From assembly GCA_037379345.1 (NCBI GenBank), contig CM074511.1:24907171-24971170 (forward strand): a stretch of 64,000 nucleotides of DNA, written 5' to 3'. How positions within the stretch are numbered: the stretch's first letter is position 1; each line of letters starts with the position of its first letter. Below, in pieces: positions 61,301 to 64,000 of this stretch. The stretch comes from Perna viridis. Taxonomy: Eukaryota. Position numbers: made by a program.

Positions 61301-64000
61301 AGCAAATTTCTGTTTTTAAATGCAATGAATTCATAGATGCAGTGGGCAATCCAGGGGAGGGTTCTCATTTTGTTGCACACTTTGGGCAAAAACGAGCTAA
61401 TAATAGCCTGGAACCCCCTTCCCCTTTCTTCTGGAACCCCTCTTTTTAAAATCTCCACTGTAGAGGATTCATAGATGGAGAAACTGGAAAATTTTCATGT
61501 GTTTCTATTTATTGCTATATTCATTGGAATCATTTTTGCCCATTCAAATTCAATTGTTTTTCATTGCATATGTATATGGATACATTGTTCAAGGCAAAAA
61601 AACTGTTAACTTTAAACATTAGCAAAGAATGAATTGCATACCTATTTCAAGGCCTGAAAAAAAGTCTTTAGCAAAGTAAACCAAAAGTAATTGTGATATC
61701 AAGATCTGATGATTTTTTACATTTTTTGTTATTACAAAATGTACTTGAGTAATAAGGTCTGACTTGTTAGCAAGATCCACCCATTTTCAAAATGCTTTTT
61801 TATTAGGTGGCCTCAATATTTTTACATAGTTATCTACTTTTTAAAGCATTAGGTTAAGTGCAGTGTTATTTCTTTAAAGCTTAAGGATGCTCATGATGAA
61901 TTCATGTTAAATATAAAGAGGCCTTGTGATAAAAAGACTATCATCATGAAAGGGGGCCATAGATTAGATGGACCACAGGGCAAAATACATTATTATAATG
62001 AAATTTAAGCTCTTTTGTGAAAAGATAGCAATGTTTATACTGACTCCTTGTTTATTAAAAGTCTTGGGAATAGATCGGTATAAAGTTTCTCATTAGTAAT
62101 CTTATTGTTTTAAATATGGTCTTTTAAATATTTTTTCATACATTTCACATAAATAGGGCAATGGATTATGAGAAATTTTGAAGTGATGTTTTATCATTAT
62201 TGACTGTAGTAAGACATTAGTTTTCGAGAAATAAACACAACAGCTGCTCAATATTGAACTATTACATTGCAAAATCTGATAAATTTTGGAAAATACTTAT
62301 CTAGCTATTATGCAAAAGATATTATGCATTCTTTTCTGATTGTTATATTTTAAAGACTGGGTCTCTGTCAGAAATTTTAGTAGAGGATCTGTAGTGTTTT
62401 GCTCAATGTGGAACCCTTTAACTGACTAATAGGTCTGAACATGAGGCTTTTATTTCATCACAGAGCTTTTGGAACTTTTGTAAAGAGGATGTGGTCTCCC
62501 TCCCTCAATAAAATACAACTTTCTTTTCGATTATATAGTTTCCTCACTGTTTTTTTTTTTTTATTTTTTTTTTTTATCCAGCGTACTTAGACATTGTTGA
62601 CTCAGATATTTATTAACCATCTCGTTTATATCAAGCAATTCTTAAGGTCTTTTACAGTTCATAACAACATGTCTCTATTGCAGAGCTTTTCACACTTACA
62701 TTTTTTTGCTACTTGAAGATCATTTTTATCTCAAAATTATGAATATAGATATTCCATGTTGATAGAGTTGTCTCATCAGTTTATTTTTACACAGCTTTCT
62801 TTGATATCAAGAGATTATATCGTGATAATTTGTAAATAAACAGCATCAATCGTGACATTTAAAAGATACACAGATCGTTGAAGTAATTTGTTTTCCCCTT
62901 TTCACCTGCTAAATAGTAAAATGTCTGGATTTTCATGAAACTTTGCCAGGCATGAAAAATCTCCCTACTACCATGCACTGTAGTATGCTGTTTGAAAGAC
63001 ATTTTATTCTCATCAGAACATAATGTTGCATGCAGTGGAATCATCTGTCATGATCTTAGCAAAAAAGAATATTGATGAAGTTTTACATTTTGACATTAAT
63101 TTCACAATAATATGATCTTTTTTTTTGTGGAAGATTAGTTCTATTTCTAAGTTTCTCAAGCTAAAACTGATTGGGTTGGAAATGTATATCTCTACGAAAT
63201 GGTCATTTTATTTTTCTGGGGACATTTTTCATTCCGGTTGGATTGTTGTCTCTTATAGCATATTCATTCTTGTTATATCTTTTTCTTTGTAGTGTACAAT
63301 GACATGTGGGGAAGGAGAGGAGATACGTCAAGTTGCTTGCTTTCTCCCAGGTATACTGAGAGGAGAAGATTCAAAATGTGATCCTAATAACAAACCAGAA
63401 TCTGTGAGGAAATGTCACCGTGCCGATTGTCCTGGTACAAGATACATTAGTGGTGGTGGAGCCAACTGGAGAACTGGACCTTGGTCTGGGGTATGTACAA
63501 TTGAGAGGGGTATATATTGGAGAACTTTACCTTGGTCTGGGGTACATAGAATTAAGAGGAGTATATATTTGAGAACTAGACCTTGGTCTGAAGTACGTAC
63601 AATTGAGAGGGTATATACTGGGGAACTGGACCTTGGTCTGGAGTACATACAGTTGAGTTCTTAGTCTGAAGTACGTACAATTGAGAGGGTATATACTGGG
63701 GAACTGGACCTTGGTCTGGAGTACATACAGTTGAGTTGGGTGTATACTGGAGAACTGGGCCTTGGTATAGGGTATGTACATTAGAGTTGGGCTAACTGGA
63801 GAATTGGACGTTGTTTGGGGGTATATATAGGATAACTGGGCCTTGGTATAGGGTATGTACATTAGAGTTGGGCTAACTGGAGGATTGGACGTTGTTTGGG
63901 GGTATATATAGGATAACTGGGCCTTGGTATAGGGTATGTACATTAGAGTTGGGCTAACTGGAGGATTGGACGTTGTTTGGGGGTATATATAGGATAACTG

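What the first reader, a model, noticed from the sequence alone, without database searches (positions are those of the whole stretch)
63465..64000. A coding exon end turning into a satellite, with a gradient from monomer to 81-bp higher-order repeat
Seen: the unit actggagaactggaccttggtctggg|gtatgtacaattgagaggggtatat (encoding WRTGPWSG plus the donor) repeats at 51-bp spacing. A 74-bp block is then duplicated (63586, 63664). After that comes a near-homogeneous 81-bp unit made of two diverged sub-copies (aactgggccttggtatagggtatgtaca.. and aactggagaattggacgttgtttgggggtata..). The first two spare donors (GTACAT 63542, GTACGT 63593) are in frame with no stop. Using them would add 17 or 34 aa and supply alternative TSR9 starts (WRTLPWSG, LRTRPWSE). 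The 81-bp units keep GG|GTATGT, the same donor hexamer as the real site. Inference: this is a snapshot of satellite birth from an exon, with the distal part expanding most recently.
Basis: partly seen in the sequence, partly recalled or inferred. Interest (0 to 1): 0.7.

Follow-up and report, generated by a model that had tools for sequence, protein, structure and literature searches.

The report
Splice-junction minisatellite in mussel ADAMTS intron
The last 24 bases of a mussel ADAMTS exon plus its splice donor have been copied head-to-tail into the following intron, a neat but already known kind of intronic minisatellite that reiterates a splice site.

Summary
The exon 63293-63490 ends in NWRTGPWSG|GTATGT. 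From about 63467 its last 24 nt plus 27 nt of intron are repeated at 51-bp spacing. A 78-bp duplication follows, then an 81-bp higher-order unit (49 + 32 bp). Unit 1 matches unit 2 at 77/81 and unit 2 matches unit 3 at 81/81. The array runs off the window end.

The gene is the collinear ortholog of a Mytilus coruscus GON-type ADAMTS. That protein reads HWRTGPWSG|CSASC at this point. So the first donor is the ancestral one, and the copying went from exon junction to repeat.

- "Satellite" is unproven. Only 537 bp or more are visible, at one place in the window.
- Genome-wide copy number, array length and use of the spare donors could not be tested.
- The architecture is not new. Minisatellites whose first monomer spans an exon-intron boundary are described for human F7, IFI6 (6-16), CBS, LMNB2 and PDGF (PMC1557585).

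The same gene holds a second donor-junction repeat (56073-56220), a duplicated acceptor (43787-43886) and a possible decayed third case (59112-59183).

Verdict: a real feature, a new member of a known kind, of modest interest.

The parts
63293..63490 (+). Phase 0-0 exon of an ADAMTS gene. It encodes the body of TSR8 (CTMTCGEGEE...CHRADCP), a linker (GTRYISGGGA) and the opening W-motif of TSR9 (NWRTGPWSG).
   Evidence: Pfam TSP1_ADAMTS E 7.2e-08. 80% identical to P0002 residues 1224-1289. Acceptor ctttgtag| and donor |GTATGT.
63491..63496 (+). Authentic (orthologous) 5' splice site GGG|GTATGT.
   Evidence: In P0002 the next residue after ...WRTGPWSG is the next TSR. GTATGT is the donor hexamer at 4 of the 18 mapped donors of this gene.
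63464..63514 (+). Monomer M1, the founding copy: 24 nt of exon (from about 63467), the donor, and about 24 nt of intron.
   Evidence: M1 matches M2, M3, M5 and M6 at 42/51, 43/50, 42/51 and 40/48.
63515..63615 (+). Monomers M2 (51 nt) and M3 (50 nt). They carry the in-frame spare GT sites at 63542 (GGG|GTACAT) and 63593 (GAA|GTACGT).
63582..63737 (+). 78-bp segment (tail of M3 plus M4) duplicated in tandem, matching 77/78. It contains the first in-frame stop, TAG at 63662-63664.
63694..63744 (+). Monomer M5 (51 nt), the last simple monomer before the higher-order units.
63745..64000 (+). 81-bp higher-order repeat, 3.16 units. Each unit is a 49-nt monomer with AGG|GTATGT plus a 32-nt monomer lacking about 19 nt. 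It runs off the window end.
   Evidence: (97%), (77/81, 81/81, 13/13).
56073..56220 (+). Second example in the same gene. The end of exon 55768-56079 (..TGGTCTTCG|GTAGGT) is reiterated about 3.5 times at 42/50-bp spacing.
   Evidence: (score 44 vs null maximum 25). The frame is open across the first two spare sites (ORF 55564..56175).
43787..43886 (+). Acceptor-side counterpart: a 50-bp x2 duplication of the polypyrimidine tract, the AG and the first 10 nt of exon 43877-44013.
   Evidence: (96%), (score 73 vs null maximum 28).
59112..59183 (+). Possible decayed third donor case. AG|GTAATGCTTGTC at the end of exon 58946-59113 recurs exactly 58 nt downstream.
   Evidence: (score 28 vs null maximum 26, marginal).

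Best explanation
This is an intronic minisatellite seeded by a tandem duplication that spanned the exon-intron junction of a TSR exon in a mytilid-mussel ADAMTS gene (GON-1/ADAMTS9/20-like).

Shown:
- The first monomer is the working exon end plus its donor.
- The later monomers are copies lying wholly in the intron.
- The exon end is ancestral, so the direction was exon junction to repeat.
- Proximal copies are diverged. A later 78-bp duplication and an 81-bp two-monomer unit were amplified more recently at the distal side.

Inferred:
- The array grew by replication slippage or unequal exchange.
- It is tolerated because the most upstream donor still defines the exon, so the coding sequence is untouched.
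- The reiterated donor-like sites are mostly or wholly silent decoys, as in human F7 intron 7.
- The array has no required function.
- It is at most the first step (a local seed) of the proposed route to a satellite family.
For: - Array structure and identities.
- Not chance: 0 of 200 shuffles reached the observed score.
- Gene identity and collinear exon map against P0002 (Mytilus coruscus ADAMTS, 1862 aa, GON domain PF08685 among its precomputed Pfam domains).
- Polarity: P0002 reads HWRTGPWSG|CSASCKSG. An unnamed relative's ORF (P0004) reads HWRTGPWSG then VSPS and a stop, so its intron does not begin like M1.
- M1 is the copy most similar to all others, as expected for a constrained founder.
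- Single locus as far as can be seen. blastn of the array against window 1-63400 gave only 11-12-nt exact words plus three short imperfect matches (19-26 nt, 85-89%), one of them a 19-nt match to the paralogous exon end at 49747-49765. All had E of 1.6 or more.
- No protein of 86-275 aa in the 5.8-billion set resembles the open minus-strand frame of the array: 170 candidates, none with E at or below 0.001.
- Decay of the proximal decoys: 63542, 63643 and 63721 are GTACAT; 63593 and 63671 are GTACGT. They match the U1-type consensus at 4-6 of 9 positions, against 6 of 9 for the real site.
- Precedent for the architecture and for silent pseudo-sites: PMC1557585, abstract and Introduction.
- Two-step model of satellite birth from a local duplication: a passage of the review PMC5615363.
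Against: - No transcript data, so silence of the decoys is an analogy, not a result. [quoted passage not shown]
- 63593 scores as well as the real donor (6/9). A GTAC-type donor (CTG|GTACTT at 45581) is used elsewhere in this gene.
- The array is cut by the window end, so it could be much longer.
- No eukaryotic genome collection was available, so the unit could exist at other loci.
- G-runs are about 9 times denser in the array (37.3 per kb) than in the other introns (4.3 per kb), so an effect on splicing is not excluded.
- Three or four junction duplications in one gene hint at more than neutrality. However, the excess over random placement is not significant: 3 of 10 arrays span a junction against 1.12 expected, P = 0.087.
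Confidence: 0.75

Rival explanations
1. Same origin, but the array is used. The two proximal in-frame GT sites (63542, 63593) act as alternative 5' splice sites. They would give isoforms with a 17- or 34-aa longer TSR8-TSR9 linker and a replaced W-motif (WRTLPWSG or LRTRPWSE), as in IFI6 (6-16) and CBS.
For: The frame is open to 63664 and the offsets are +51 and +102. 63593 matches the consensus as well as the real site (6/9). A GTAC-type donor is used at 45581. [quoted passage not shown] The same in-frame layout recurs at 56073-56220 (+14 and +28 aa).
Against: There is no transcript evidence. No protein in either large collection carries the inserted peptide except the window's own mechanically called ORF P0003. 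The proximal sites lost the +4 T, and three of five lost the +5 G. In F7, LMNB2 and PDGF only the upstream site is used. In-frame openness over 34 codons is weak evidence, because a 51-nt period keeps frame automatically.
Confidence: 0.15
2. The array belongs to a dispersed satellite or a mobile-element-borne tandem repeat that landed beside the exon. Likeness to the exon end would then be secondary (capture or conversion).
For: Only that the array leaves the window, so its size and far flank are unseen, and that (recalled, from no call) bivalve genomes hold many element-borne tandem repeats. One search shows about nine other tandem arrays in this window.
Against: The exon-derived 24 nt are 18-22 of 24 identical in every later monomer checked, and the exon motif is orthologous in Mytilus coruscus. 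There is no second copy in 63.4 kb. There is no hit to the array's open minus-strand frame. The first copy is in perfect register with the coding exon.
Confidence: 0.05
3. The homogeneous distal part (81-bp units, 81/81 identical) is wholly or partly an assembly artefact. The real array would then be shorter, longer or differently ordered.
For: The last two units are identical and the array touches the window end. Tandem repeats are a common source of assembly error (general knowledge).
Against: The diverged proximal copies, the 78-bp duplication with one mismatch and the 4 differences between unit 1 and unit 2 are not what collapse or stutter would produce. The artefact reading would not alter the junction-derived origin.
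Confidence: 0.05

Closest known systems
Human F7 intron 7 37-bp VNTR (PMC1557585; abstract and Introduction read)
   Same: An intronic minisatellite whose first monomer spans the exon-intron boundary, so the donor site is reiterated downstream. The upstream site defines the exon.
   Different: In F7 only 4 nt of exon are in the monomer and the pseudo-sites are identical in sequence. Here 24 nt of exon (a whole WxxxxWSG motif) are copied, the proximal sites have diverged, the period keeps the reading frame, and a two-monomer higher-order unit has formed. Here usage and polymorphism are untested.
Human IFI6 (6-16) intron 2 and CBS intron 13 boundary minisatellites (as described in the Introduction of PMC1557585; original papers not seen)
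   Same: Reiterated donors after the authentic one. [quoted passage not shown]
   Different: Use is documented there and not here. Those are vertebrate genes. Here only the first two spare sites are in frame before a stop.
Human PDGF intron 4 (81-bp monomer, 16-18 repeats) and LMNB2 (100-bp monomer) minisatellites (same Introduction)
   Same: Larger-unit boundary minisatellites where only the authentic donor is used.
   Different: The shared 81-bp length is a coincidence of number only; no sequence was compared. Here the 81-bp unit is a dimer of diverged 51-bp-type monomers.
Two-step model of satellite DNA birth (Ruiz-Ruano et al., as summarised in review PMC5615363, passage read)
   Same: Step 1: a de novo local duplication gives a short tandem array at a unique locus.
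   Different: Step 2, spread through the genome and long arrays, is not shown here, so 'satellite' is not established.
Splice-site or intron change by tandem duplication (Lehmann et al. 2010, PMC2891723, abstract read; Zhuo et al. 2007 PNAS, title seen in a reference list only, content recalled)
   Same: Tandem duplication of a segment carrying a splice signal creates extra, potentially usable splice sites.
   Different: Those cases concern duplicated coding sequence becoming intron. Here an existing junction was duplicated and the copies already lie in an intron.

Membership tests
Exon-intron-boundary-spanning minisatellite with reiterated 5' splice sites (F7 / 6-16 / CBS / LMNB2 / PDGF type) | Head-to-tail array of units of tens of bp lying in an intron | tested here: met
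   TRF periods 51, 78 and 81 over 63467-64000. The intron position follows from the exon map.
Exon-intron-boundary-spanning minisatellite with reiterated 5' splice sites (F7 / 6-16 / CBS / LMNB2 / PDGF type) | First monomer spans the boundary and contains the authentic donor | tested here: met
   M1 is 24 nt of exon plus GTATGT plus intron. The donor is authenticated by the ortholog P0002.
Exon-intron-boundary-spanning minisatellite with reiterated 5' splice sites (F7 / 6-16 / CBS / LMNB2 / PDGF type) | Donor sequence reiterated in the following monomers | tested here: met
   GT is kept at all 8 homologous later sites. The hexamer is identical (GTATGT) at 3 of the 8 (63772, 63853, 63934) and is GTACAT or GTACGT at the other 5.
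Exon-intron-boundary-spanning minisatellite with reiterated 5' splice sites (F7 / 6-16 / CBS / LMNB2 / PDGF type) | Copy-number polymorphism among individuals (VNTR) | not testable with these tools
   Only one sequence is available.
Exon-intron-boundary-spanning minisatellite with reiterated 5' splice sites (F7 / 6-16 / CBS / LMNB2 / PDGF type) | Known splicing pattern (upstream site only, or proximal pseudo-sites too) | not testable with these tools
   No transcript data. The protein searches found no isoform with the insert.
Satellite DNA family | Long arrays (kb to Mb) | tested here: inconclusive
   At least 537 bp are seen; the array is cut at 64000.
Satellite DNA family | High copy number or several loci | not testable with these tools
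   No eukaryotic genome collection is available. Within the window there is no other copy. The proxy protein search found none.
Satellite DNA family | Homogenised monomers, often with higher-order structure | tested here: met
   81-bp unit of 49 + 32 nt, matching 77/81 and 81/81.
ADAMTS protease, GON-1/ADAMTS9/20-like (host gene) | Metalloprotease HExxH, TSR1, cysteine-rich region, spacer, then a run of C-terminal TSRs | tested here: met
   HELGH exon at 25214-25320. Pfam TSP_1, ADAMTS_CR_2/CR_3, ADAMTS_spacer1 and TSP1_ADAMTS hits on single exons. Collinear with P0002 residues 332-1289.
ADAMTS protease, GON-1/ADAMTS9/20-like (host gene) | C-terminal GON domain | not testable with these tools
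   The 3' part of the gene lies beyond the window. The ortholog P0002 carries PF08685 in its precomputed Pfam list.

The most novel reading that the evidence does not exclude
TSR exons of this mussel gene may be hot spots for junction-spanning tandem duplication. The candidates are three consecutive TSR donors (56079, 59113, 63490) and one acceptor (43877). The TGG-rich W-motif codons, together with the G-rich intron start, might promote slippage. Because the copied module re-creates a complete WxxxxWS(G)|GT exon end in frame, the array would offer ready-made alternative exon ends. That would make it a route by which TSR linkers and W-motifs could be lengthened or swapped, and by which a locally born repeat could go on to found a satellite family.
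Probability: 0.08. Interest if true: 0.55.

Novelty: new member of a known kind. Interest (0 to 1): 0.25.

Why it matters
It is a clean example of a splice junction seeding a tandem array, with the polarity fixed by an ortholog. It shows successive stages side by side: diverged monomers, a segmental duplication and a young two-monomer unit.

I found no invertebrate example in four literature searches: listings only; one paper, on human F7; no paper.

If transcript data showed use of the in-frame spare donors, it would be a natural test of how 5' splice sites are chosen among reiterated copies outside mammals. As it stands it changes no annotation beyond a warning. Gene predictors may pick a wrong donor here, and also at 56079 and 43877.

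Tried and rejected
1. Enrichment of tandem arrays at splice junctions. 3 of 10 arrays (TRF score 80 or more, 20300-64000) span one of 38 junction points, against 1.12 expected under random placement; P = 0.087. This is not significant, so I make no claim of a hot spot.

2. Looking for the insert peptide in public proteins:
- 'Longer' search: 1 hit among 35 candidates, covering the exon part only.
- 'Near' search: 2 hits among 2 candidates, namely the window's own ORF P0003 and an unnamed 60-aa relative, P0004.
- Full HMMER scan: 137 hits with E at or below 0.001. All except P0003 were 30-52% identical generic TSR matches.
- I read 6 of the roughly 10 hits whose best stretch ran past residue 80. 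Five are TSR exons read through into unrelated introns. One (P0110) is a 17-aa tandem repeat of weak likeness.

3. Proxy for genome-wide copies: the open minus-strand frame of the array (157 aa) searched against proteins of 86-275 aa. There were 170 candidates and none significant. This is weak evidence only, because short-read contigs collapse tandem repeats.

4. The minus-strand ORF 63527-64000 as a gene. Rejected, because an 81-nt unit without a stop in one frame gives an open frame automatically, and it has no homolog.

5. G-quadruplex idea. Dropped on reading the sequence; the G-runs are 10-25 nt apart.

6. Selection against decoy donors. The changes at +4 and +5 are shared by related copies, so they amount to only two or three events. 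That is too few to argue from.

7. Zhuo et al. 2007 could not be read.

8. Not attempted:
Only single exons or contiguous genomic translations were used.
So copy number, array extension and orthologous introns stayed unchecked.
- The one genome-contig scan (bacteria and archaea only) was not spent.

9. The window is not human. GC is about 0.32 and the best match is a Mytilus protein.

Full report
**What is there.** The window has about 32% G+C and no N. Its + strand carries a multi-exon ADAMTS gene. Single-exon translations hit Pfam TSP_1, ADAMTS_CR_2/CR_3, ADAMTS_spacer1 and, for six exons, TSP1_ADAMTS. A search with the contiguous translation 63293-63592 found one long protein, P0002. This is 'A disintegrin and metalloproteinase with thrombospondin motifs 4 [Mytilus coruscus]', 1862 aa, with a GON domain among its precomputed Pfam entries. 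It is 80% identical over the exon part.

tblastn of P0002 against the window maps 19 collinear exon hits from residue 332 to 1289. So the window is from a mussel related to Mytilus, not from a human. I built and searched no joined spliced model. Every query was one exon or one contiguous stretch of genomic translation.

**The exon.** 63293-63490 is a phase 0-0 exon (66 codons). It encodes the body of one TSR, a short linker and NWRTGPWSG, the opening tryptophan motif of the next TSR. By my count of the sequence printed, that next TSR is the ninth of P0002. All later TSR exons of the gene are cut the same way: they start at CSxTCG and end at W..(G).W(S/G).|GT.

**The array.** TRF reports period 51 (63467-63657, 82%), period 78 (63582-63737, 98%) and period 81 (63738-64000, 97%). 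Cutting at the recurring core gives the following map:
- M1 to M3, of 51, 51 and 50 nt.
- M4, interrupted by a 78-bp tandem duplication of 63582-63659.
- M5.
- Three units of 81 nt, each a 49-nt monomer plus a 32-nt monomer that lacks about 19 nt between two GGGGTAT motifs.
- Units 1 and 2 match 77/81. Units 2 and 3 match 81/81. The array continues 13/13 to the last base of the window.

The 24 exon-derived bases are 18-22 of 24 identical to M1 in every later monomer checked. A junction probe scored 58 against the downstream 500 nt, versus at most 22 in 200 shuffles.

**Direction of copying.** In P0002 the sequence HWRTGPWSG is followed at once by CSASCKSG, the next TSR. So the first GT is the orthologous donor, and the exon end predates the repeat. 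An unnamed 60-aa ORF from a relative (P0004) reads HWRTGPWSG, then VSPS and a stop. Its intron therefore does not begin like M1. M1 is also the copy most similar on average to the others, as expected if it alone is held by selection. The unit therefore came from the junction, not the exon end from a repeat.

**Is it a satellite?** This cannot be told. Within the other 63.4 kb of the window the array has only 11-12-nt chance words and three short imperfect matches (19-26 nt), one of them to the paralogous exon end at 49747-49765. As a proxy for other loci, I searched the open minus-strand frame of the array against 5.8 billion predicted proteins and found nothing: 170 candidates, none with E at or below 0.001. 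This is weak evidence, because tandem repeats collapse in short-read contigs. What is visible is a minisatellite of 537 bp or more. In the two-step model summarised in PMC5615363 (passage) it would be step one only.

**The spare donors.** The arithmetic is right.
- 63542 (GGG|GTACAT) and 63593 (GAA|GTACGT) lie +51 and +102 nt from the real donor.
- The frame is open to the TAG at 63662.
- The added peptides would end in WRTLPWSG or LRTRPWSE.
- M3 has 50 nt, so the later homologous sites are out of frame (at 63643, 63721 and the three distal sites) or behind the stop (63671).
- All five proximal homologous sites have C at +4, and three of them have A at +5.
- They match the MAG|GTRAGT consensus at 4-6 of 9 positions. 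The real site matches 6, and the distal AGG|GTATGT sites match 7.
- A GTAC-type donor is used elsewhere in the gene (45581), so the sites cannot be dismissed on sequence alone.

No transcript data exist here. No public protein carries the insert, apart from the window's own mechanically called ORF.

- F7 intron 7 (37 bp, 5-9 copies): only the upstream site is used.
- LMNB2 (100 bp) and PDGF intron 4 (81 bp): only the authentic site is used.

The abstract reports that the F7 pseudo-sites are functional but lose to the upstream site through a 5'-to-3' scanning-type choice. The present array meets the structural features of this class. Polymorphism and usage are untestable here. The differences are:
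- A much larger exon share, namely a whole protein motif.
- An in-frame period.
- Diverged proximal sites.
- A young higher-order unit.

Related ideas concern tandem duplication creating new splice sites or introns (PMC2891723, abstract). Zhuo et al. 2007 I know only from its title in a reference list and from recall.

**Other junction duplications in the same gene.**
- Scanning 18 donors and 18 acceptors with junction probes, three donors exceeded all 200 shuffles: 63490, 56079 and, marginally, 59113. One acceptor did so: 43877.
- At 56073-56220 the exon end TGGTCTTCG|GTAGGT is reiterated about 3.5 times at 42/50 bp. The first two spare sites are in frame.
- At 43787-43886 the polypyrimidine tract, the AG and 10 nt of exon are duplicated. 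The upstream AG would bring a TGA after four codons.
- At 59112 the 14-mer AG|GTAATGCTTGTC recurs 58 nt downstream, inside a decayed repeat.
- A placement test gives 3 of 10 arrays on a junction against 1.12 expected, P = 0.087. I therefore treat these as the expected by-catch of a repeat-rich genome: duplications that spare the outermost splice site are harmless.

**Most likely mechanism.** A 51-bp slippage duplication across the junction produced two donors. The upstream one kept defining the exon. The copies drifted as intron, including CpG-type decay of GTACGT to GTACAT. Further unequal exchange produced the 78-bp duplication, and most recently the 81-bp dimer amplified. A by-product is a G-run density of 37.3 per kb, against 4.3 per kb in the other introns. 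Whether that helps or hinders splicing is unknown.

**Verdict.** The feature is real and the description correct. The origin from the exon junction is supported. 'Satellite birth' and alternative splicing are unproven. It is a new member of a known kind.

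Noticed in passing
window 56073-56220: A second donor-junction tandem repeat. The end of exon 55768-56079 (..TGGTCTTCG|GTAGGT) is reiterated about 3.5 times at 42/50-bp spacing. The first two spare GTAGGT sites are in frame (+14 and +28 aa).
   Followed up: partly
window 43787-43886: A 50-bp x2 (96%) duplication of the polypyrimidine tract, the AG and the first 10 nt of exon 43877-44013. 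Use of the upstream AG would give a stop after four codons.
   Followed up: partly
window 59112-59378: The donor 14-mer AG|GTAATGCTTGTC recurs exactly at 59170-59183, within a decayed 86-120-bp repeat (three copies of a 34-nt core at 59139, 59259 and 59345). This may be an old junction-derived array.
   Followed up: partly
window 55907-56001: An imperfect (CAACAA)n run inside the exon encodes a threonine-rich, mucin-like linker between two TSRs. The Mytilus coruscus ortholog has a similar linker of different length.
   Followed up: no
window 63491-64000: Runs of three or more G are about 9 times denser in the array (37.3 per kb) than in the gene's other introns (4.3 per kb). The array is 32.5% G and 10.4% C on the + strand.
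   Followed up: partly
P0110 (unnamed protein): A 181-aa predicted protein with six tandem 17-aa repeats (QWR[ST]LSSGGLCPVEDSV). It has the same 17-codon period and a weak likeness (E 2e-4) to the array read-through. This is probably chance inflated by repetition.
   Followed up: no
window 10536-10751 vs 39321-39488 (+); 7184-7390 vs 13526-13732 (-): Pairs of similar ORF translations in different introns suggest dispersed repeats or mobile-element remnants.
   Followed up: no
window 23452-23582, 27336-27552, 35185-35361, 47368-47465: Other intronic tandem arrays: 65 bp x2 at 100%, 58 bp x3.7 at 92%, 32 bp x5.2, and 33 bp x3. The locus is generally rich in young tandem duplications.
   Followed up: no
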